From a virus, in the IMG/VR virus record IMGVR_UViG_3300032893_000092, positions 1 to 46,000 of that record: 46,000 nucleotides of DNA; one strand, 5' to 3'. A model generated the notes under the pieces. The model was not told the origin of the DNA and ran no database searches. It saw only the letters and a program-made list of their open reading frames with translations. Positions within the stretch are counted from its first letter, which is position 1. Each line of letters starts with the position of its first letter. The translations under genes and the position numbers were made by a program. Positions 1-46,000 of the stretch are shown here, piece after piece.

Positions 1-127
1 CCTAACAATCCCATCAAGTCCGGCGATCCCATCTATACGACCTCGGGTCGTCTCTGTGGCGTCGCTGTCGCGGACGCTGTCCCTGGAACCGCGGGTCCGG
101 CTGACGACGGTAACGTCGTAATGCAAG
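1..127. repeat. terminal overlap, copy 1 (identical to 45874-46000)
   Basis: Compared base by base over all 127 nt with the last 127 nt of the window and found identical. This implies a circular or circularly permuted unit of 45873 bp. Confidence 0.95.
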
Positions 128-16300: not shown

Positions 16301-16929
16301 TCCTGATCGGTAGCTGTGAAGAGTACCGGACCCGCGGCTTCCACGAAGCGATCCGAGCGACCTGGGGAAGAGGGTCAGTGATACCTTACTTCTTCATCCT
16401 GGGAGAGGGTGGACACTCGGAGCGGCCTGACGAGGTGGTTCTTCAGGGTGTGGGTGACGACTATAAGTCGATCGCCTTCAAGACTAGGGAGGGTCACAGA
16501 TGGGCTCGCCAGCAAGGTCACGACTTCGTCTTCCAGGCGTGGGCTGACACCTACTGTTTTACGAAGAGAATGATCCGGAGCGGCTTCGAGAACTGTGACT
16601 ACGTCGGCCACTTCCGAGGAGAGACCGTTCACCAGCTCGGGAAGATAGCTCTAGGATGCTACGCCAGCGGTGGTTCGGGTTACTGGATGTCACCACGGTT
16701 CACCGATCTCTTGATCCAGGAGGAGCCGGATCACTGGGCTGAGGACCTCTGGGTCGGCCGCGTCTCGAAGAAGTTCGGGATCGCCGGTACCCAGGATTAC
16801 CGGTACTTCTCCGCGGGAGGTTACGCTCCGGAATGTTTGACGATCCATCTCAGTCGAGGGACTGGGAGGTACGACCCGGCCTGGATGGGAGATACCTACT
16901 TCCACGCCATGAAACGAGGAGAATTATGA
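16288..16929 (+). CDS. Fringe/GT31-like glycosyltransferase (second copy of the fold)
   Basis: ATG 16288 follows GAAGGAG. Motifs are VILIGSCEEYRTRGFHEAIRATWG, WADTYCF (in place of DDD) and AEDLWVGRV. Confidence 0.6.
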   Translation: MSPVILIGSCEEYRTRGFHEAIRATWGRGSVIPYFFILGEGGHSERPDEVVLQGVGDDYKSIAFKTREGHRWARQQGHDFVFQAWADTYCFTKRMIRSGFENCDYVGHFRGETVHQLGKIALGCYASGGSGYWMSPRFTDLLIQEEPDHWAEDLWVGRVSKKFGIAGTQDYRYFSAGGYAPECLTIHLSRGTGRYDPAWMGDTYFHAMKRGEL

Positions 16930-17336
16930 AGCTGGACATCTACAGAGAACACGAGACCAGCCGGTCAATCACCGGCCGATTAGAGATTGACGGTCAAGAA
17001 GAGTGTTTCACGATCGAGCCATCCCGAGACACTCCGGTTCACGCCGGTCACCCTTGTATTCCGGCCGGTCTCTACGACGTGGAGCTCACGCTGAGCCCAC
17101 ACTTCCACTACGTCACACCTGAGATCATGAACGTCCCAGGCCGGAGCTATATCAGGATTCACCGCGCGAACAAGCCAGAGGACCTCCTCGGCTGTACCGG
17201 TGTTGGCGAGAGCTTGGGACCTCAGCCGGACTGGATCGGAGGCTCGAAGAAGGCGTTCGACCAGCTCATGATCATCTTGAATCAGGCTCGCGATAATGGT
17301 GAAAAGATCACCGCGGAATGGCACGATCCGCGGTAA
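16926..17336 (+). CDS. DUF5675-like protein (conserved His/Cys, possible cell-wall enzyme)
   Basis: ATGA overlap at 16926. The pattern ITGRLEIDGQEECFTIEP...IPAGLYDVELTLSPHF...NVPGRSYIRIHRAN..DLLGCTGVG...GGSKKAFDQL matches my memory of the DUF5675 family. Confidence 0.6.
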   Translation: MKLDIYREHETSRSITGRLEIDGQEECFTIEPSRDTPVHAGHPCIPAGLYDVELTLSPHFHYVTPEIMNVPGRSYIRIHRANKPEDLLGCTGVGESLGPQPDWIGGSKKAFDQLMIILNQARDNGEKITAEWHDPR

Positions 17337-17984: not shown

Positions 17985-18151
17985 CGAAGACTTGGTTCGA
18001 CAAGACGAAGGACCTGGTCACCCTGGCGATCCAGGCTGACGCTCACGCGATCTTGATCATCAGCCTAGGCTGTCTGATGGAACTCCACGAAAAAGGATCA
18101 GGCCAGCCGCTGATCATGGCTGGCCTGGCTGTCTTCAAAGGGAAGAGCTAG
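17963..18151 (+). CDS. small two-TM protein (holin candidate)
   Basis: 62 aa with RBS GGAAGGTG. Hydrophobic segments are AHAILIISLGCLM and PLIMAGLAVF. It is the last rightward gene. Confidence 0.4.
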   Translation: MADQTTVTKTWFDKTKDLVTLAIQADAHAILIISLGCLMELHEKGSGQPLIMAGLAVFKGKS

Positions 18152-18192: not shown

Positions 18193-18714
18193 TCACGCCG
18201 TCGCCTGAGTTCCTTCGATGAAGCTCCGGACCTTCGCTGGCAATTTCAGCGAGCGGATCGCCTTCCTCACGGCCGAGAACTCACTCAGCTTCTGGTAGCG
18301 TTCGCTCCACTGGTGAAGTTCCTTGTAGGCGCGAGCGATGACCTGGCGCCTCAGTTCTCGATCGCTCATGGCGTGGTTGATGGTCGTGTAGACCTTCAAG
18401 GTCTTCTCACCGTCCTCTACTTCGACGTTGACGAAGCCGCGGATCGTGCGAGCTGGCCTCCCGTCTGTGGCCGGTTCCAGGACGATCACTATCTGGCGAA
18501 GGATGTACCGCGCCTGGTCGAGCCGAAAACGTTCAGCGGCGACGGAGTCGTCCCACTCGAAGCCGTCGTGTAGTGGCGAGGAGCTCTTGCGAGCGTCCTC
18601 TAAGACGATCTCAGGTGTGATCACCCCCTTCTTCTCTTCGAGCTTCTCCAGATGATCGCCACAGGATTGAGCGTCGAGCCGGAGCCGACAGCTTTCTTTC
18701 CACTCGTAGACCAT
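18193..18714 (-). CDS. hypothetical protein (last leftward gene)
   Basis: 173 aa with RBS AAGGGAGG 5 nt upstream of the ATG. It contains PLHDGFEWDDSVAAERFRLDQARYILRQI. I could not assign a family. Confidence 0.6.
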   Translation of the reverse strand: MVYEWKESCRLRLDAQSCGDHLEKLEEKKGVITPEIVLEDARKSSSPLHDGFEWDDSVAAERFRLDQARYILRQIVIVLEPATDGRPARTIRGFVNVEVEDGEKTLKVYTTINHAMSDRELRRQVIARAYKELHQWSERYQKLSEFSAVRKAIRSLKLPAKVRSFIEGTQATA

Positions 18715-18930
18715 AAAAACCTCCCTTTTGAAGTTGTAGTTCCCACCTAGCCGAACCTGCCTAACCCCGCCAGACCAGACCTGACCTCACCTTGCCTGCC
18801 TTGCCATGCCGTGCCTTGCCAAGCCTGACCCGGACGGGCCTTGCCAGACCTTGCCTGCCTCGCCTGCCTTGCCAGACCTAGCCTTGCCTTGCCCTGCCAG
18901 ACCGAGCCTCGCCATGCCTGCCTCGCCTGC
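18715..18930 (-). repeat. G-rich (minus strand) iteron-like array A plus conserved leader box
   Basis: GCCAGACC occurs at 18769, 18843, 18871 and 18896. The 16-mer GCCTGCCTCGCCTGCC occurs at 18853 and 18916. The region is dominated by the words CCTTGCC, GCCTGCC and CCAGACC. The box GGTGGGAAC(TACAAC)TTCAAA (plus-strand coordinates 18727-18747) lies just upstream of the RBS. Confidence 0.8.
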
Positions 18931-19512
18931 CTACTCGACGTGGAACCGGCCGAAGCTCCCGTTCTTCTCAGGACGCCACTCGCCGATCCCGACACCGAAG
19001 CCGGCGATGTTAAAGAGGTTTACGATCTGCTCGGCGCTGAGCACCTTGGAGTTGAACTTCAAGGTGAAGGTCGTCCTCCAGTTCTTGAACTCGCCGCGGT
19101 AGCGAATATCGGCAGTTCCCATCCCGACGCGGACCATGTCCTCACGCGGAGTGGGAGTTCCGTCGATCTTCACCAGGTCACCGTCAATGTGGAACGCGCG
19201 ACGAGCTTCGGTCTTGAACATGTCACAGTCTACAGCGGCTGTTACCGCGGCCGCTTTGACGCCGATCGTGGGGAAGCCGTAACCCTTCCCGTCAGCGAGC
19301 AAGTAGAGCGAGTCCTTGAAGTCCCGCTCCGGGTCCTTCGCTCCCTTCGGCTGTCTGGCCTTCTTCATCTGTGCGTCCAGCATCTGTTTCTTCGCCTTCT
19401 CGCTCCACTGGTGAACGATCAGCGGCGAGTCGCCGACCAGAGTGATTTTGATCTGTTTAATATCGAGCTTTAACAGCTCGACCGTCTGAACTTCCTGTGT
19501 CGTCTTTGCCAT
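18931..19512 (-). CDS. hypothetical 193-aa protein with a C-terminal Gly-rich loop
   Basis: RBS GAGGAG. It is flanked on both sides by the G-rich arrays and ends ...NIAGFGVGIGEWRPEKNGSFGRFHVE. The family is not recognised. Confidence 0.7.
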   Translation of the reverse strand: MAKTTQEVQTVELLKLDIKQIKITLVGDSPLIVHQWSEKAKKQMLDAQMKKARQPKGAKDPERDFKDSLYLLADGKGYGFPTIGVKAAAVTAAVDCDMFKTEARRAFHIDGDLVKIDGTPTPREDMVRVGMGTADIRYRGEFKNWRTTFTLKFNSKVLSAEQIVNLFNIAGFGVGIGEWRPEKNGSFGRFHVE

Positions 19513-19668
19513 ACGTTTATCTCCTCGTTTGAAGTTCCCACCACAGAACTTGGGAGACGGGAAAAATCCCGCACCTCGCCGGACCTGGCCACGCCTCTCC
19601 AGACCACGACTCGCCAGACCTCGCCTGCCACGCCTACACTACCCCACCTATGATGACATGAGTAGCTT
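19513..19668 (-). repeat. G-rich (minus strand) iteron-like array B plus conserved leader box
   Basis: GCCAGACC at 19613, CCAGACC at 19599 and CGCCTGCC at 19622. The same box GGTGGGAACTTCAAA (plus-strand 19528-19542) lies before the RBS. There is a small hairpin, CGGGA-TTTT-TCCCG. Confidence 0.75.
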
Positions 19669-31749: not shown

Positions 31750-33261
31750 CTACTCCTCCAGGAGAACCTTCCTCCATTCCATCGTCAGCCGCTTACCGAC
31801 GTTGATCTTCTCGCGAAGACAGCGAACGATGTCGTGGACTACCGTCTTCTGGCCTTGCGGACCAGAGATTACCATGTCGAGTAAGAGCGTCGTGGTCCGT
31901 CCGATCTTCTTCACGTCGTCCTGGACCCGCTGTTCAGCCTGACTCTGTGTCACGATATTGTAGTCACGGCTGAGGAAGACTTGAGCCGGAGCCTTCGCGA
32001 ACGAGACTCCGTACTTCACAGCTTGCGGCTGACAGACCATGATACCGGCTCCACAGTAGGGGTGATCTGGGTGGAGGAAGTTATCGTCCTTCACGTCTCC
32101 CCACTGTTGACCGACCTTCAGGCCGTACTGGGTGAATAACATCCCGAGCTTCTTCGCGAGTCGCTCGATCTCCGGACGCCAGCGACACCAGACGACACAC
32201 TTGAACTGAGGGTCCGCGGCCAGCCGGTCGTTCACCCACTGACAGAAGGCCAGTGCGGACTCGTGACTTAGCTCCTTGGCTTCCTCCTCACCCTCTACTC
32301 CACCCAGGAAGCCGCTCGCGATCTGTGCCAGCCGGAGGACCTTGGTCGAGGCGTGACGAGTCCAGCTGATGTCGCCGTCGCGTAGCTGGACGATCATCTC
32401 GTCCCTCATGTCCTTGTAGATTCTCCAGGTCTCCTCGGAGAGCCGCGCAGTGAGGATGCCAGGCTCGAAGGCCGGTAGGTCCAGGATTCCCTTCACGTCT
32501 GTCTGTTTCAGGACCGAGCAGTAAGGCGCCGTCTTCTTGGCCAGCTCGTCGAGCTTTTGCCAGCCGACGATCTTCAAGGTCTGACGACCTCCGAACTTCT
32601 GACGCTTGTAGATCGCGTGAGTGTAATTGAAGTGTTTCAGGTCTTTGAAGCCGAGGATAGCCGGATCGAGCGTCTTGAACTTGGAGTAGAGTGGCTGGGG
32701 TGTCCCGTCGTCTGGTGTTCCGTCGAGGATCGTGACGCGCTGACAGACCTTCCGGAGCTGGAAGATTGACCGGCTGGTAGCAGACACTGGGTTAGCCAGA
32801 GCCGCTCCTTCGTCGATCACGAGCCAGTTCGACAGGTCCTGGATCGAGACGGCCAGGTCGATCATCTTGGGATATTTCGAGCGCTCGTCCTCCTGGCGTA
32901 GGAACTCCAGGGAGGTCACGATGATCAGGAGCTTACCCTTCCCTACCCTAGCGCGGACAGCCTCTGGGCTGATCTTGGAGTCGTAGTCGTAGACGGTGAC
33001 TGGAACGAAGCTATGCTTCTGAATCTCGCCGAGCTTCGTGTCCAGCCATACGTCCTTGACCTGGGAGGGACAAGCGATCACCAGAACTTCGAGTTCACCG
33101 GCCTGGTAGAGACACCCGGCCGCGTCCAGGACCACCTTCGACTTCCGAAGCCGCATCTCCCAGAAGAGCGCGTACTTCGGGTGGGTCAGGAGGTCCCGGA
33201 GTCCTTGAGCCTGGTAGCTCAGTGGAGGGTACTTGAACCAGCTCTGGTTAATCTCGATCAC
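31750..33261 (-). CDS. SNF2-family helicase-like protein with degenerate Walker A
   Basis: FWEMRLRKSKV aligns with the SNF2 motif DEMGLGKT. VIDEGAALANP corresponds to motif II. The C-terminal helicase lobe has ...DYNIVTQSQAEQRV. GTG start in a GTGA overlap. Confidence 0.6.
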   Translation of the reverse strand: MIEINQSWFKYPPLSYQAQGLRDLLTHPKYALFWEMRLRKSKVVLDAAGCLYQAGELEVLVIACPSQVKDVWLDTKLGEIQKHSFVPVTVYDYDSKISPEAVRARVGKGKLLIIVTSLEFLRQEDERSKYPKMIDLAVSIQDLSNWLVIDEGAALANPVSATSRSIFQLRKVCQRVTILDGTPDDGTPQPLYSKFKTLDPAILGFKDLKHFNYTHAIYKRQKFGGRQTLKIVGWQKLDELAKKTAPYCSVLKQTDVKGILDLPAFEPGILTARLSEETWRIYKDMRDEMIVQLRDGDISWTRHASTKVLRLAQIASGFLGGVEGEEEAKELSHESALAFCQWVNDRLAADPQFKCVVWCRWRPEIERLAKKLGMLFTQYGLKVGQQWGDVKDDNFLHPDHPYCGAGIMVCQPQAVKYGVSFAKAPAQVFLSRDYNIVTQSQAEQRVQDDVKKIGRTTTLLLDMVISGPQGQKTVVHDIVRCLREKINVGKRLTMEWRKVLLEE

Positions 33262-33971
33262 TTGGAAGAAACCACCTTGATAGCTTCTTTAACTACAGGT
33301 CCGTAAGTCTCCCACCACTCCTTCGCTCCCTCAGCAAACTCCTTCACATCTTCGGGACCCCAAGAGAGCCATTCACAATTTTTATGCTCTTGACATCCGA
33401 TAGAAGTTTTATCGGGAAGAACTAATACTGACCACCCTCCAAAGTCAATCCTTGCAACTTTGAACCCTTCAGGGAGGTCGGCTCCGCTGAGGTTGGCTTC
33501 GCGGAGGTCGGCTCTGCGGAGGTCGGCTCCGCTGAGGTCGGCTCCGCTGAGGTTGGCTCCGCGGAGGTAGGCTCCGCTGAGGTCGGCTTCGCTGAGGTCG
33601 GCTCCGCGGAGGTAGGCTCCGCTGAGGTCGGCTCCGCTGAGGTCGGCTCTGCGGAGGTTGGCTCCGCGGAGGTAGGCTCCGCTGAGGTCGGCTTCGCTGA
33701 GGTCGGCTCTGCGGAGGTCGGCTCTGCGGAGGTAGGCTTCGCGGAGGTCGGCTCTGCGGAGGTCGGCTCCGCTGAGGTCGGCTCCGCTGAGGTCGGCTCC
33801 GCGGAGGTAGGCTCTGCGGAGGTAGGCTTCGCGGAGGTCGGCTCTGCTGAGGTCGGCTCCGCTGAGGTCGGCTCTGCGGAGGTTGGCTTCGCGGAGCGCT
33901 TCAGTTATTGTCGAATGTTTTTCAGTTTCAAACAAAACAGAGCCTAAAATGCTTTTAATTTGTATTTTCAT
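33258..33971 (-). CDS. pentapeptide-repeat protein with a ~70-aa C-terminal domain
   Basis: About 28 consecutive A(D/N/Y)L(S/R)(G/R/E) pentapeptides (ADLSGADLSRADLREAYLRRAYLRG...), followed by PEGFKVARIDFGGWSVLVLPDKTSIGCQEHKNCEWLSWGPEDV... Confidence 0.85.
   Translation of the reverse strand: MKIQIKSILGSVLFETEKHSTITEALREANLRRADLSGADLSRADLREAYLRRAYLRGADLSGADLSGADLRRADLREAYLRRADLRRADLSEADLSGAYLRGANLRRADLSGADLSGAYLRGADLSEADLSGAYLRGANLSGADLSGADLRRADLREANLSGADLPEGFKVARIDFGGWSVLVLPDKTSIGCQEHKNCEWLSWGPEDVKEFAEGAKEWWETYGPVVKEAIKVVSSK
33476..33897 (-). repeat. 15-bp-period tandem DNA repeat (coding, pentapeptide array)
   Basis: Repeated units GCTCCGCTGAGGTCG, GCTCTGCGGAGGTCG and GCTCCGCGGAGGTAG, in frame with the ORF. 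Confidence 0.9.
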
Positions 33972-36832: not shown

Positions 36833-37350
36833 AGCTCCGGCTTCCTCTCTGGGATTCCAGCTATCAAGTTCTCAGCGGCGATAACCGCTTCAATCACCGG
36901 AATCTTCTCGTCATCAAAAGTTTGAGCTCTGATCGTTTTAATCAGATGCTGTAGTACGATCAGGAGCTCGGGACCCGCGTCCTTCTCCTGGCGACGCCGG
37001 TAGGCTTCGCGAGCCTCGGCCAGCCGCGCCTCTTCAGCACGCCGATACTTCTGGTCAGCCAGGTCGAACAGCTGGTTCTTCTCGGCGTGGTCCATCATGC
37101 GGCCGATGATGTACTTGGCCGCGTTCGAGTCCGAGCGTAGGCGACGAGTCGAGAAGTACCCAGGCTCTCCTCTCCCGGCGATCGAGTTCTTGAACAAAGT
37201 CTCGCCAGAACTGAAGCTAGGTCCAGGACCCAGCTTCTTCTCGGCGTCGAGCCAGACGTGGAAGCGAGCTCCGTCGTACTCGCAAGACAGCGAGTAGTAA
37301 GGGACGTGTTCACCGTGACGTTCTACTTCGATTTTCGTGAGGTCCTTCAT
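36829..37350 (-). CDS. hypothetical protein
   Basis: 173 aa. ATGA overlap with the upstream gene. Its stop overlaps the primase stop in CTAG. Confidence 0.5.
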   Translation of the reverse strand: MKDLTKIEVERHGEHVPYYSLSCEYDGARFHVWLDAEKKLGPGPSFSSGETLFKNSIAGRGEPGYFSTRRLRSDSNAAKYIIGRMMDHAEKNQLFDLADQKYRRAEEARLAEAREAYRRRQEKDAGPELLIVLQHLIKTIRAQTFDDEKIPVIEAVIAAENLIAGIPERKPEL

Positions 37351-38572: not shown

Positions 38573-38845
38573 GTGCTATTCCCCTGGAGGCGCTGGGTCT
38601 GTTACACTCCCTTTACGATGAACCGCTCGACCCTCGAACAGCGACAGAACGAGATGAAGGCGCGACAGTTCACTGAAAGGGCTGAGTGGCGCCGAGCTCG
38701 CGCCAGGAATAGAGTCCAGAAGGCCGTCAGGCGCCGTCAGAGACATAGAAGGCAGGTCTTGAACTATTGGAGCCGGGTCTGGGGATGCACACCTGAAGAA
38801 GCCGGTAAACGCCTTAGCACGTCTCTTGCCAAACCTCGGAAATAA
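38573..38845 (+). CDS. hypothetical Arg-rich protein
   Basis: 90-aa ORF (GTG 38573, or ATG 38618). It is very basic (RRARARNRVQKAVRRRQRHRRQ) and has a weak RBS. Confidence 0.4.
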   Translation: MLFPWRRWVCYTPFTMNRSTLEQRQNEMKARQFTERAEWRRARARNRVQKAVRRRQRHRRQVLNYWSRVWGCTPEEAGKRLSTSLAKPRK

Positions 38846-38896
38846 TCCCAAAATTATCAGAATACAATTCTCGCGCGGGGGAACGGGGGAGTGTAT

Positions 38897-38930
38897 TATG
38901 ACTTCTGTCTTATGACTTCTGTCTTATGAC
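38897..38930. repeat. 14-bp tandem repeat TATGACTTCTGTCT x2.4
   Basis: Read directly. A third, related copy (GTCTTGACTTCTGTGG) lies at 39021-39036. It sits inside an AT-rich gap upstream of terS. Confidence 0.85.
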
Positions 38931-39062: not shown

Positions 39063-39509
39063 ATGGAGTCCCTCTCCCAGAGTGTGAATGTTCCATCTCC
39101 TGCTGGCGACGCCGGTAGCGAGCCCGGCGTCGTCTCTTCACCCACTCCACAGAAGCCGACCAAAACGGTTTTACGTGACGCTCGCGGTTACATCTTGCCT
39201 GGTAGCGCTCCGCTGAATCCTGGAGGACGGCCGAAGACGCGGCTGTTCAAGGACGCGATCCGTAAGCGTCTGATGGAGCGGCCTGACGAGTTCGAGCAGA
39301 TCATCGACACGATCTTCGACAAGGCGCTGGGATGTCACGTCAATCGTCACGGCGAGATCACTGGAGCTCTGGAGGCGATCGAGTTCGTCCGAGACACGAT
39401 CGGCGAGAAGCCGACCCAGGACGTGACGCTGACCGGAGGCGAGGGTGAGGACGGAGAGGTTCTGGAGATTCCGATCAAGTTGATACCACCGGCGAACCAC
39501 AGCTTATGA
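39063..39509 (+). CDS. terS: terminase small subunit (DUF5681-like)
   Basis: 148 aa with an NPGGRPK motif. ATGA overlap with terL. Confidence 0.6.
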   Translation: MESLSQSVNVPSPAGDAGSEPGVVSSPTPQKPTKTVLRDARGYILPGSAPLNPGGRPKTRLFKDAIRKRLMERPDEFEQIIDTIFDKALGCHVNRHGEITGALEAIEFVRDTIGEKPTQDVTLTGGEGEDGEVLEIPIKLIPPANHSL

Positions 39510-41252: not shown

Positions 41253-42905
41253 ATGAAGTTCACAGAGACACTGAAGACGTTCTGGTACGGTGAGAGCGCG
41301 AGAGCTTCGGCTCCCGCGTCTTCTGGTGTCAGTACGAGCGAAGCCGCTCACTGGATCATGGAGACGCTTGGTAACGTCCCGATCGGCGACGGCGACATCA
41401 CGATCCGCGAGGCGTTCACCCAGGCTGACATCGAGCTCGCGCTGGACGATCGCGGCTGGCTGGTCGGTGGTAAGCGAATGGCCGGTGAGCTCGACCCGCT
41501 GAGCCGTCAGACCCAAGTGAACAAGAGCCGTTATTACTGGCTCCGCGATCCGCTCGCTCACCAGGCCGTGAGACTGTGGACGGACTACGCGCTAGGCGAC
41601 GAAGGGATCACGTACAAGGCGGAAAGCGACAGCGTCCAGAAACAACTTGACCGAGTCTACAAACATCGCAAGAACCGCGCGGTCTTCTCAGCGTCCGGCC
41701 AGCGTCGCTCTTCGACGCGGCTCCTGGTAGACGGTGAGCTGTTCTACGCCTTCGGGAAGGACGGCCGCGTCCGTAACTTCGACTGTCTCCAGATCACAGA
41801 CATAATCACCGATCCGGACGACGTGGAGACGATCCAAGGGTATAAGCGCTCGACCTGGCTTCCCGCGGCTCAGAACGTGCCAGTCCCGGACACGAAGACG
41901 CTCTATTATCGCGACTGGACGAACCCTGACGGATCAGTACTCGACCCGATCACGAAGAAGGAAGTCAAAGTCGAGCAAGGGATCGTGATCTATCACCTCC
42001 CCTTCGACAATCTGACCCAGAGAGGTAACGGCCTGTTCTCTTGCTGTTCAGACTGGCTCCGCGAGAACCGTCGCTTTATGGCCGCTCGTGTAGCGATCAC
42101 CCAGGCTCTGTCCAAGTTCGCGACGAAGACCACCGTGAAGGGTGGTCAGACGATGATCAACTCGGTCCGCGCTAAGCTGGAGTCTACGTTCGCTCAGACC
42201 GGCCTGAGTGGTGGAACCGAACACCAGCCTCCTACGGCGCCTGGTGGGAACTGGCTCCAGAATGACGGACTGAACCTCGAACAGTTCAAGGTCCAGACCG
42301 GAGGCTCTGAAGCGAAGGACGACGCTAACAACCTGAAGCTGATGGTAGCTCCAGGGACTGGCATCTTCCTCCACTACTTCGGCGATCCTTCGACCGGTAA
42401 CCTGGCTACGGCTACCGCGATGGAACTCCCTATGCACAAGATGTTTCAGAGCTATCAGAAGCTCTGGGTGGACGCTCACCGGGAGATGCAATCAATTATC
42501 CTGGACGAAGACCCAGACGACGATCCCGAGCCGATTACGAACGAGCTCCCGGCGATCATCGAAGACGATCTTCTGAAGCTGTCTAATTTTCTGACGGCCG
42601 TCACTCAGGTCTTCCCTGAAGCGAAAGTTCCAGAGCTCTTGAGACAGTGTCTCAGCTCGGCGAACGTGCCAAACCTGGATCAAGTAATGAAGTCGATCGA
42701 AGACAAGCGCAATCTGATCGACACGAACGCGAAGCAAGGACTGGACGCCTCGGGAGCTCCGTTCAAGAACCAGCTCCCGATAAAGACCGGCGAGATGACC
42801 GGAGACCAGTCCCTCGGAGTCAGTGGCAACAGTGGAAGCCTGGAAGCGGACAGAATGGCGAGGCTGTCCGTAGCGGTGGAGAAGCTCGCGGAGTCTCTGA
42901 GGTGA
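41253..42905 (+). CDS. portal protein
   Basis: 550 aa, located between terL and the MuF-like gene. RBS GGAAGAGAG. Confidence 0.75.
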   Translation: MKFTETLKTFWYGESARASAPASSGVSTSEAAHWIMETLGNVPIGDGDITIREAFTQADIELALDDRGWLVGGKRMAGELDPLSRQTQVNKSRYYWLRDPLAHQAVRLWTDYALGDEGITYKAESDSVQKQLDRVYKHRKNRAVFSASGQRRSSTRLLVDGELFYAFGKDGRVRNFDCLQITDIITDPDDVETIQGYKRSTWLPAAQNVPVPDTKTLYYRDWTNPDGSVLDPITKKEVKVEQGIVIYHLPFDNLTQRGNGLFSCCSDWLRENRRFMAARVAITQALSKFATKTTVKGGQTMINSVRAKLESTFAQTGLSGGTEHQPPTAPGGNWLQNDGLNLEQFKVQTGGSEAKDDANNLKLMVAPGTGIFLHYFGDPSTGNLATATAMELPMHKMFQSYQKLWVDAHREMQSIILDEDPDDDPEPITNELPAIIEDDLLKLSNFLTAVTQVFPEAKVPELLRQCLSSANVPNLDQVMKSIEDKRNLIDTNAKQGLDASGAPFKNQLPIKTGEMTGDQSLGVSGNSGSLEADRMARLSVAVEKLAESLR

Positions 42906-45813: not shown

Positions 45814-46000
45814 ATGAAGAACTTTGTCCAGAAGGGTGATCGAGTCACCTTCGCGAAAACAGCCTTGACGGGGCCTAACAATCCCATCAAGTCCGGCGAT
45901 CCCATCTATACGACCTCGGGTCGTCTCTGTGGCGTCGCTGTCGCGGACGCTGTCCCTGGAACCGCGGGTCCGGCTGACGACGGTAACGTCGTAATGCAAG
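45814..46000 (+). CDS. head decoration protein, DUF2190-like (N-terminal part; continues at base 128 of the window)
   Basis: The ATG follows AGAGGTAAGAG. The product starts MKNFVQKGDRVTFAKTALTGPNNPIKSGDP... and the ORF runs off the window end inside the terminal overlap. Confidence 0.6.
   Translation, partial: MKNFVQKGDRVTFAKTALTGPNNPIKSGDPIYTTSGRLCGVAVADAVPGTAGPADDGNVVMQ
45874..46000. repeat. terminal overlap, copy 2 (identical to 1-127)
   Basis: Base-by-base identity with 1-127. Confidence 0.95.

What the first reader, a model, noticed from the sequence alone, without database searches (positions are those of the whole stretch)
18715..19668. Two strand-asymmetric G-rich iteron-like arrays with a shared leader box flank an unknown gene
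The non-coding stretches upstream (on the minus strand) of the last two leftward genes are unlike any other intergenic DNA here. They are 216 nt and 156 nt long and are built almost entirely from short overlapping words that read GGTCTGGC, GGCAGGC and GGCAAGG on the transcribed strand. GCCAGACC occurs 5 times (plus one CCAGACC) and a perfect 16-mer occurs twice, 63 bp apart. The skew is extreme: almost no C outside GGC on the minus strand. Each array ends in the same box, GGTGGGAAC(TACAAC)TTCAAA, immediately before the RBS, and I found this box nowhere else in the genome. Possible roles include iterons of a replication origin, binding arrays for a phage regulator, or long G-rich 5' leaders acting as a protein sponge, two-tetrad G-quadruplexes or processing signals.
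Basis: seen in the sequence. Interest (0 to 1): 0.65.

Follow-up and report, generated by a model that had tools for sequence, protein, structure and literature searches.

The report
Phage VIPR guide-RNA arrays
The two G-rich stretches are arrays of 5-base GGY-NN repeats that most likely encode guide RNAs for the small Cas7-like protein lying between them, so this is a new example of the VIPR RNA-guided phage-versus-phage system first described in 2026 preprints, not a replication origin.

Summary
Both intergenic stretches are strand-specific tracts of GGYNN pentamers: 13 GGY in A1 and 38 in A2. They are the only tracts of this kind in the 46-kb phage genome.

The gene between them (18931-19512, minus strand) models as a stand-alone Cas7-like RAMP. 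It is sequence-homologous to the solved SUSP1 Vipr protein and keeps that protein's GGY-binding residues as H34, R139, E178, W179 and R180.

In 110 of 151 related viral and prophage loci, the same pentamer arrays sit on the same strand beside this gene and its partner gene. Position 3 of the repeat is a pyrimidine in 94% of units, and positions 4-5 are unconstrained.

This matches VIPR systems (bioRxiv 10.64898/2026.04.26.720920 and .720927). In VIPR, Vipr polymerises on vrRNA, one protomer per repeat, and the NN dinucleotides read double-stranded DNA with a one-base skip to silence competing phages.

I read the window as vipr, a vap gene, and about four vrRNAs separated by GGCA|GG phase shifts. 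It is specific to this lineage.

I found no natural target. The iteron/origin and G-quadruplex readings are not supported. This is a new member of a known kind.

The parts
19569..19648 (-). vrRNA tract A1. It holds 16 pentamer-frame units (13 GGY, some degenerate) with one GGCA|GG phase shift at 19624-19629. The putative guide after the shift is 19571-19625, 11 units, with NN = GA CT GA GT CT GA GT CA CC GA GC.
   Evidence: Parsing. The periodicity and composition rules match the family logo.
19528..19570 (-). 3' tail of A1. It has two predicted hairpins: CGGGA-UUUU-UCCCG and AAGUUCU-GUGGUG-GGAACUU. The vipr ribosome-binding site (GAGGAG) follows.
   Evidence: Fold; the energy is not distinguishable from shuffles (z = -1.4). 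Coordinates.
18931..19512 (-). vipr: a 193-aa stand-alone Cas7-like RAMP (phrog_4652, no Pfam hit). The predicted thumb hairpin is residues 120-142 and the G-loop is about residues 171-188 (GFGVGIGEWRPEKNGSFG).
   Evidence: AF2 pLDDT 84.5. The top 50 Foldseek hits are all CRISPR RAMP-containing complexes (Csm, Cmr, type VII, Cas7-11), E from 1e-5. The family profile hits PDB 36pp_D 'SUSP1 Vipr protein' at E = 4e-9. hhalign gives 97% probability. SUSP1 H17/R138/D177/W178/R179 align to H34/R139/E178/W179/R180; H34, R139, W179 and R180 are invariant columns and the acidic position is D or E.
18743..18931 (-). vrRNA tract A2, with 38 GGY. It starts on the last base of the vipr stop codon. The 16-mer GGCAGGCGAGGCAGGC (18916-18931 and 18853-18868) and the other GGCA|GG shifts divide it into putative guides A2a 18864-18918 (11 units), A2b 18796-18855 (12 units, one degenerate) and A2c 18757-18796 (8 units).
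   Evidence: In the family, the spacing between successive GGCAGG has a mode of 45-60 nt.
18726..18757 (-). 3' tail of A2. The predicted hairpin is GGUUC-(10 nt)-GAACU. The box is 18727-18747 and carries a 6-nt internal duplication relative to A1. The vap ribosome-binding site (GGGAGG) follows.
   Evidence: (D8).
18193..18714 (-). vap-like accessory gene, 173 aa (phrog_15946, no Pfam hit). It lies next to vipr in 74 of the 80 IMG/VR loci.
   Evidence: AF2 pLDDT 88.4. Foldseek gives only weak matches, several of them winged-helix DNA-binding domains, best E = 0.1. No similarity to SUSP1 vap1.
18096..18115 (-). Terminator-like hairpin plus T-run about 80 nt after vap. It is the likely end of the leftward transcription unit that carries the locus.
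   Evidence: This is a consensus scan only.

Best explanation
The locus 18193-19668 (minus strand) is a VIPR (Viral Interference Programmable Repeat) system.

Inferred from the characterised SUSP1 system:
- The two G-rich tracts are transcribed as part of the leftward operon and give about four vrRNAs of 8-12 GGYNN repeats.
- Vipr, the 193-aa RAMP encoded between the tracts, polymerises along each vrRNA with one protomer per repeat. It buries each GGY and presents the NN dinucleotides.
- The filament then reads double-stranded DNA as NN-x-NN-x (one base skipped per repeat) and blocks transcription of a competing phage, satellite or prophage. The downstream vap gene assists.

Inferred from family sequence patterns, more tentatively:
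- The 4-nt GGCA units ('GGCAGGC') break the 5-nt register and mark vrRNA boundaries. This corresponds to the 'staggered', 1-nt-overlapping array type mentioned in the VIPR paper.

Shown here: the repeat code, the RAMP fold, homology to SUSP1 Vipr with conserved GGY-contacting residues, and the family-wide strand-specific linkage of arrays to vipr-vap.
For: The sequence is GGYNN-periodic and unique in the genome.

Gene A:
- It is a Cas7-like RAMP by predicted structure.
- It is homologous to SUSP1 Vipr: BLASTP 38% over 66 aa, E = 2e-12; profile against PDB 36pp_D, E = 4e-9; hhalign 97%.
- The residues that the structural paper shows to recognise G1, G2 and Y3 (H17, R138, D177, W178, R179) align to H34, R139, E178, W179 and R180; four are invariant columns and the acidic position is D or E.

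Locus architecture:
- The SUSP1 locus has the same layout: a 195-aa vipr, then a 146-aa vap, flanked by 450-530-nt repeat-bearing intergenic regions.

Family-wide linkage:
- Across 151 related loci, 110 carry chains of 8 or more units on the vipr strand and 3 on the other strand (4085 against 30 units).
- A vap homologue is adjacent in 74 of the 80 IMG/VR loci.
- Position 3 is C or T in 94% of units, while positions 4 and 5 are near-uniform.
- The logo anchored on GGCAGG shows the 5-nt register shifting by one base at that motif, and the spacing between such motifs peaks at 45-60 nt, which is 9-12 repeats.

The published definition and mechanism come from the papers read.
Against: - There are no expression, processing or binding data for this phage.
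- No natural target was found. Exact NN-x scans of viral, genome and metagenome collections gave nothing credible. Only exact matches could be searched, whereas the paper accepted 80% or more.
- The vap gene shows no detectable similarity to SUSP1 vap1, and its fold matches are insignificant.
- The window has no SUSP1-like ~40-nt pseudoknot tail after each guide. The tail/box hairpins are not better than shuffles and are absent from relatives.
- A2c has only 8 units, and several units are degenerate (GTCGT, GTCCG, GGAGA).
- The VIPR type (I-VII) could not be assigned.
Confidence: 0.9

Rival explanations
1. The tracts act on the phage's own genes. They would be 5' leaders on which Vipr, or another protein, assembles just upstream of the vipr and vap ribosome-binding sites, giving translational autoregulation or a protein sponge. 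This could operate instead of guiding DNA recognition, or in addition to it.
For: Both arrays end 10-25 nt before a ribosome-binding site and share the same terminal box/hairpin. In many relatives an array also directly abuts the vap start codon.
Against: In many other relatives the array lies after vap and ends in a terminator, with no gene downstream to regulate. The hypervariable NN positions are not expected for a pure binding leader. In the characterised SUSP1 system the RNAs act as guides on DNA. No self-target above shuffled controls was found in the window.
Confidence: 0.06
2. The tracts are iterons or another double-stranded DNA protein-binding array of a replication origin or partition site.
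For: They are dense direct repeats in non-coding DNA, including a repeated 16-mer, and they lie at the end of the replication-gene block.
Against: The period is 5 nt with variable informative positions, not 17-22-bp conserved iterons. Orientation follows vipr in 110 loci against 3. The arrays co-migrate with vipr-vap into unrelated genomic contexts, for example between the tail chaperone and tape-measure genes in Gordonia phage Ecliptus and within prophages of many phyla. No AT-rich unwinding element or adjacent initiator gene was seen.
Confidence: 0.02
3. The tracts are G-quadruplex-forming (two-tetrad) or R-loop-forming G-rich sequences that act through nucleic-acid structure alone.
For: (GGNNN)n could in principle form two-tetrad quadruplexes, and there is strong G-over-C skew on the transcribed strand.
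Against: Structure alone does not explain three things: the pyrimidine at position 3 in 94% of units, the strict 5-nt register with defined phase shifts, and the obligatory linkage to a RAMP that conserves the GGY-binding residues. In the solved SUSP1 complex the guanines are held individually by protein.
Confidence: 0.02

Closest known systems
VIPR system of Escherichia phage SUSP1 (type II VIPR; bioRxiv 10.64898/2026.04.26.720920 and 10.64898/2026.04.26.720927; PDB 36pp)
   Same: Both have a ~195-aa stand-alone RAMP followed by a ~150-170-aa accessory gene on the same strand. Both have GGY/NN pentamer tracts upstream and downstream. The G-loop motif G-x-G-(D/E)-W-R-P and the thumb Arg are shared. 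Both are phage-encoded and have no cas genes or CRISPR array.
   Different: Only the C-terminal ~65 residues align by sequence, at 38-40% identity. The vap genes are not detectably related. Each SUSP1 vrRNA has its own ~35-nt conserved leader and ~40-nt pseudoknot tail and uses mostly GGT units. In the window the guides are contiguous, mostly GGC, and separated only by GGCA|GG phase shifts, with a short hairpin only at the end of each array.
Class 1 CRISPR-Cas Cas7 backbone filaments (Csm3/Cmr4/type VII Cas7) on crRNA
   Same: The RAMP fold has an RRM core, a G-loop and a thumb. The protein oligomerises along a guide RNA with a fixed nucleotide period and flips bases at each thumb (paper text).
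   Different: The period is 5 nt with three bases sequestered, against 6 nt with one base flipped. The guide information is non-contiguous. There is no repeat-spacer array, no cas1/cas2, no Cas5, Cas6 or Cas10 partners, and the system is encoded by a virus.
Type III toxin-antitoxin arrays (ToxI repeats processed and bound by ToxN)
   Same: A tandem-repeat non-coding RNA is encoded directly next to the protein that binds it, and a multi-unit transcript is presumed to be cut into units. This comparison rests on my own knowledge, not on a test here.
   Different: ToxI units are identical 36-nt repeats that neutralise an endoribonuclease toxin. Here the units are 5 nt with variable positions, and the protein partner is a RAMP, not a ToxN-like nuclease.

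Membership tests
VIPR system | A stand-alone small (~20 kDa) RAMP protein (Vipr) with an RRM core, a G-loop and a thumb | tested here: met
   The 193-aa protein models at pLDDT 84.5. All 50 Foldseek hits at E <= 1e-3 are in CRISPR RAMP-containing complexes (TM about 0.40-0.59). It has a long beta-hairpin at 120-142 and a glycine-rich loop at 171-188.
VIPR system | Sequence homology to an experimentally characterised Vipr | tested here: met
   The family profile hits PDB 36pp_D 'SUSP1 Vipr protein' at E = 4e-9. BLASTP gives 2e-12 and hhalign 97% probability. Only the C-terminal third aligns confidently.
VIPR system | Conservation of the residues that recognise G1, G2 and Y3 (SUSP1 H17, R138, D177, W178, R179) | tested here: met
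   They align to H34, R139, E178, W179 and R180. H34, R139, W179 and R180 are invariant in a 10-sequence alignment spanning 25-75% identity, and the acidic position is D or E. The residue roles come from the paper. The equivalent of K33 could not be placed.
VIPR system | vrRNA tracts of tandem YNNGG/GGYNN repeats (the paper's search threshold is 4 or more units; typical guides have 9-16), with GGY conserved and NN hypervariable | tested here: met
   There are 13 GGY in A1 and 38 in A2. Putative guides have 11, 11, 12 and 8 units. In the family, position 3 is Y in 94% of units and positions 4-5 are near-uniform.
VIPR system | Arrays flank vipr on the same strand, with no CRISPR array or cas genes | tested here: met
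   Both window tracts are on the vipr strand. In 151 relatives the count is 110 on the vipr strand against 3 on the other. TRF and the repeat finder show no repeat-spacer array. Neighbouring genes give no Cas families.
VIPR system | An adjacent vipr-accessory (vap) gene, predicted to interact with DNA | tested here: inconclusive
   A conserved partner gene follows vipr here and in 74 of the 80 IMG/VR loci. It is unrelated to SUSP1 vap1. Its fold matches (several of them winged-helix domains) are not significant, best E = 0.1. Which of vap1-6 it is cannot be told.
VIPR system | An invariable, structured 3' tail after the repeat tract | tested here: inconclusive
   Each array ends in a similar hairpin that includes the box. 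There are only two copies, the fold energies are not better than shuffles, and the box is absent from 1.1 Mb of relatives. Internal guides have no tail; this may fit the paper's 'staggered' arrays.
VIPR system | vrRNAs are expressed and co-purify with Vipr | not testable with these tools
   This needs small-RNA sequencing and a pull-down.
VIPR system | Natural DNA targets that match the NN-x (1-nt skip) rule, usually in competing mobile elements with the skip at codon wobble positions | tested here: inconclusive
   No hit beat shuffled controls in the window or in the held loci. Seven exact scans of viral contigs gave 0 hits in six scans and 1 in the seventh; that hit has the wrong codon phase and lies in a low-GC contig. 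The genome scan gave 0 hits. The 8 metagenome hits lie antisense in cysS, carbamoyltransferase and dehydrogenase genes of high-GC bacteria with the skip off the wobble position, so I judge them chance. Mismatch-tolerant search was not possible.
VIPR system | Viral or proviral host genome | tested here: met
   The window is a 45,873-bp phage genome with a 127-bp terminal repeat and with portal, tail-fibre, DNA polymerase, helicase and primase genes. Relatives are IMG/VR contigs and prophage-like regions.
Iteron-type replication origin | Conserved direct repeats of ~17-22 bp bound by an adjacent initiator, plus an AT-rich unwinding region | tested here: not met
   The period is 5 nt with variable positions. 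GC is 0.55-0.67 across the tracts. The flanking genes are a RAMP and an unknown protein, not an initiator.
CRISPR-Cas | A repeat-spacer array (repeats of ~24-48 nt), with adaptation and effector cas genes | tested here: not met
   No such array was found and there were no Rfam hits. The only Cas-like protein is the solitary RAMP.

The most novel reading that the evidence does not exclude
In this clade vrRNAs may be made without individual leaders or pseudoknot tails. In that reading the 4-nt GGCA unit, which shifts the pentamer register by one base, would itself terminate one Vipr filament and start the next, so a single operon transcript would be measured out into guides by the protein. The terminal box-hairpin, sitting directly on the vipr and vap ribosome-binding sites, would in addition couple filament assembly to translation of the two genes as an autoregulatory loop. 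Neither feature is described for the characterised type II systems.
Probability: 0.2. Interest if true: 0.55.

Novelty: new member of a known kind. Interest (0 to 1): 0.38.

Why it matters
VIPR is a newly described, minimal RNA-guided DNA-recognition system and a proposed ancestor of CRISPR RAMPs. This locus has no annotation in any of the family libraries I searched. It shows that such loci can be recognised from sequence alone: a GGYNN period next to a ~190-aa gene ending in G-x-G-E/D-W-R-P.

It adds a compact example with contiguous guides separated by GGCA phase shifts and with a different accessory gene. The family is also very large: about 7,900 of 8,000 scored candidates were homologous, and prophage copies occur across many bacterial phyla.

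There is a practical consequence for annotation. Such arrays are mis-annotated as protein-coding genes in curated phage genomes, for example gp48 of Mycobacterium phage Donkeykong.

Tried and rejected
- Rfam at gathering threshold and tRNA scans found nothing.
- Pfam, NCBIfam and PADLOC gave no family for either gene. PHROGs gave only 'unknown function' families.
- Before the structure search I considered, from my own knowledge, TRAP-like periodic RNA binding, an antisense Rho rut site, a terminase pac site, Chi-like arrays and R-loop origins. I dropped them once gene A proved to be a RAMP homologous to SUSP1 Vipr.
- Protein-coding reading of the arrays (ORFs 18747-18995 and 18787-18915): rejected, because a 5-nt period cannot keep a reading frame and the NN positions are unconstrained.
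- Target prediction by the NN-x rule found nothing. I tried local scans with mismatches against shuffled-guide controls. I also ran seven exact scans of viral contigs, one of genomes and one of metagenomes.
- The metagenome hits taught a caution. NN-x patterns look like codon-periodic sequence, so high-GC genomes give chance matches far above the uniform expectation.
- A search for the box in 1.1 Mb of related loci found no conserved occurrence.
- Fold prediction of the tails gave hairpins that are plausible but not statistically supported.
- Assignment to VIPR types I-VII was not possible, because the paper's supplementary data are not held.

Full report
**The observation**

A1 is 19513-19668 (156 nt), upstream of a 193-aa minus-strand gene (18931-19512). 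A2 is 18715-18930 (216 nt), between that gene and a 173-aa gene (18193-18714).

The word counts, the 63-bp-spaced 16-mer, the G-over-C skew and the shared terminal box are all confirmed, with small corrections:
- GCCAGACC also occurs five times elsewhere in the genome, in the opposite orientation.
- There are two extra CCAGACC, not one.
- The 9-mer GGTGGGAAC occurs once more, at 42243.

On the transcribed strand the tracts are tandem pentamers GG-Y-N-N, interrupted now and then by a 4-nt unit GGCA that shifts the register by one base. Chains of eight or more such units occur only three times in the whole 46-kb window on either strand, all inside the finding. Shuffles never give runs as long as those observed.

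**Genomic setting**

The window is a complete phage genome of 45,873 bp with a 127-bp terminal repeat. It encodes portal, tail-fibre, DNA polymerase I, helicase and primase genes. The locus is the last part of a long leftward block of replication genes and is followed by a terminator-like hairpin. No Rfam family or tRNA gene is present.

**The flanked genes**

Neither gene matches Pfam, NCBIfam or PADLOC, and PHROGs lists both as 'unknown function'.

The 193-aa protein has about 7,900 homologues among the 8,000 candidates scored. An AlphaFold model built on 30 of them (pLDDT 84.5) matches only CRISPR RAMP-containing complexes: Csm, Cmr, type VII and Cas7-11, with 50 hits at E <= 1e-3 and TM about 0.40-0.59.

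The 173-aa protein models well (pLDDT 88.4). It has no significant structural neighbour; several of the weak matches are to winged-helix DNA-binding domains.

**Comparative evidence**

I fetched 80 viral loci encoding a homologue of the RAMP.
- In 74 of them a homologue of the second gene is adjacent.
- Long G-rich pentamer arrays (100-800 nt) lie on the same strand, either between the two genes, after the second gene, or before the first.
- With 71 more loci from bacterial genomes, 110 of 151 loci carry chains of 8 or more units on the RAMP strand, against 3 on the opposite strand (4085 against 30 units).
- Within chains, position 3 is C or T in 94% of units, whereas positions 4 and 5 are close to uniform.
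- A logo anchored on GGCAGG shows the 5-nt register on both sides, displaced by one base at the anchor. Successive anchors are most often 45-60 nt apart, which is 9-12 repeats.
- Close relatives at about 75% protein identity (L093, L096) show this punctuation very cleanly.

Cultured phages carry the system too. Gordonia phage Ecliptus has an array between genes 19 and 20, in a cassette inserted between the tail chaperone and tape-measure genes. Mycobacterium phage Donkeykong has a ~350-nt array that is annotated as the protein-coding gene 48.

**Identification**

A literature search for phage RAMPs led to two 2026 preprints, which I read. They describe VIPR systems as follows:
- A stand-alone RAMP (Vipr) is encoded with an accessory gene (vap) and vrRNAs made of 9-16 YNNGG repeats followed by a tail.
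- Vipr forms a helical filament with one protomer per repeat. It sequesters the GGY and presents the NN bases.
- The NN bases pair with double-stranded DNA while skipping every third target base. This silences competing phages, satellites or prophages.

The type example, Escherichia phage SUSP1, is in the phage collection. Its locus has the same layout as the window: a 195-aa gene, then a 146-aa gene, flanked by repeat-bearing intergenic regions of 450 and 530 nt.

The window protein is homologous to SUSP1 Vipr:
- BLASTP gives 38% identity over 66 residues, E = 2e-12.
- hhalign gives 97% probability.
- The family profile hits PDB 36pp 'SUSP1 Vipr protein' at E = 4e-9.
- The residues shown structurally to hold G1, G2 and Y3 (H17, R138, D177, W178, R179) align to H34, R139, E178, W179 and R180. 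Four are invariant in an alignment spanning 25-75% identity, and the acidic position is D or E.

I therefore file the locus as a VIPR system: vipr is 18931-19512, a vap-like gene is 18193-18714, and the vrRNA arrays are A1 and A2.

**Anatomy proposed for the window (inference)**

- A1 holds one guide of 11 units after a GGCA|GG shift (19571-19625).
- A1 then has a 43-nt tail with two predicted hairpins.
- A2 starts on the last base of the vipr stop codon. It holds three guides of 11, 12 and 8 units (18864-18918, 18796-18855, 18757-18796).
- The A2 guides are separated by the GGCAGGCGAGGCAGGC 16-mer or by a single GGCAGG. A2 ends in a related hairpin and box (18726-18757).
- This contiguous, phase-shift-delimited layout differs from SUSP1, where each vrRNA has its own leader and pseudoknot tail. 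It resembles the 'staggered arrays' with 1-nt overlaps mentioned in the discovery paper.
- The box is not found in 1.1 Mb of related loci, and the hairpins are not better than shuffles. Its role as a 3' cap is only a suggestion.

**What could not be shown**

- I found no natural target. Mismatch-tolerant scans of the window and all held loci did not beat shuffled-guide controls.
- Seven exact scans of viral contigs gave one hit in total. That hit has the skipped base at codon position 1 and lies in an unrelated low-GC contig.
- The genome scan gave nothing.
- Eight metagenome hits for the A1 guide fall antisense in cysteinyl-tRNA synthetase, carbamoyltransferase and dehydrogenase genes of high-GC bacteria, with the wrong codon phase. 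I judge them chance products of codon-periodic composition.
- The vap gene is not detectably related to SUSP1 vap1.
- The VIPR type (I-VII) cannot be assigned, because the supplementary data are not held.
- Expression, processing and binding are untested.

**Rival readings**

- Iterons or an origin are contradicted by the 5-nt period, the variable informative positions, the strict strand linkage to vipr and the movement of the module between unrelated genomic contexts.
- A purely structural G-quadruplex or R-loop role does not explain the pyrimidine at position 3 or the conserved GGY-binding residues.
- A cis role as a translational leader for vipr and vap cannot be excluded as an additional function in this lineage. 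It fails as a general explanation because many relatives place the array after vap, ending in a terminator.

**Verdict**

The finding is real and biologically important, and it is now explained. It is a new, unannotated member of the VIPR family described in 2026, with a contiguous (probably staggered) guide layout and a lineage-specific terminal hairpin. Confidence in the VIPR assignment is about 0.9. Confidence in the proposed guide boundaries and in the role of the box is much lower.

Noticed in passing
L081 4495-4844 (Mycobacterium phage Donkeykong NC_051648, about 36885-37234): A ~350-nt GGYNN array (69 units) lies directly upstream of the vipr homologue. It is annotated as protein-coding gene 48 ('hypothetical protein'), and gene 49 is annotated with a long 5' extension into the array. 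Cluster F mycobacteriophages probably carry a mis-annotated VIPR locus.
   Followed up: partly
L082 3741-6592 (Gordonia phage Ecliptus OP820472, genes 16-21): The vipr-array-vap module sits with two helix-turn-helix genes in a cassette inserted between the tail assembly chaperone and tape-measure genes. This suggests the module moves as a unit.
   Followed up: partly
window 33258-33971 (-), tandem repeat 33473-33896: There are 28 copies of a 15-nt repeat that encode a pentapeptide-repeat protein (ADLSG/ADLRR...), a Qnr/MfpA-like fold that could mimic DNA. Its function in this phage is unknown.
   Followed up: partly
window 1-127 and 45874-46000: An exact 127-bp direct terminal repeat is present. 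The window is therefore a complete genome of 45,873 bp, either circularly closed by assembly or carrying direct terminal repeats.
   Followed up: yes
window 38892-38930: A 14-nt tandem repeat (TGTCTTATGACTTC, 2.8 copies, 96% matches) lies in the 211-nt gap between divergent genes (38576-38851 on the minus strand, 39063-39509 on the plus strand). It is a candidate operator or iteron-like site, and a better place than the finding to look for a regulatory switch or origin.
   Followed up: no
L085-L092 (metagenome contigs): The NN-x target pattern of guide A1 matches exactly, on the antisense strand, in cysS (KMSKS region), carbamoyltransferase and dehydrogenase genes of high-GC bacteria. Because NN-x patterns are codon-periodic, target searches need codon-aware null models.
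   Followed up: yes
window 16833-17336 (+): A DUF5675 protein (Pfam E = 2e-27) is encoded just before the convergent end of the rightward block. Its function is unknown.
   Followed up: no
L093 (463-kb metagenome contig, 322788-335375): A relative at 75% identity lies inside a 463-kb bacterial contig between IF3 and a peptidase M24 gene. It has arrays both between vipr and vap and after vap, and is probably a prophage. The best-matching prophage-like loci come from very different phyla, so the host of the window phage cannot be inferred.
   Followed up: partly
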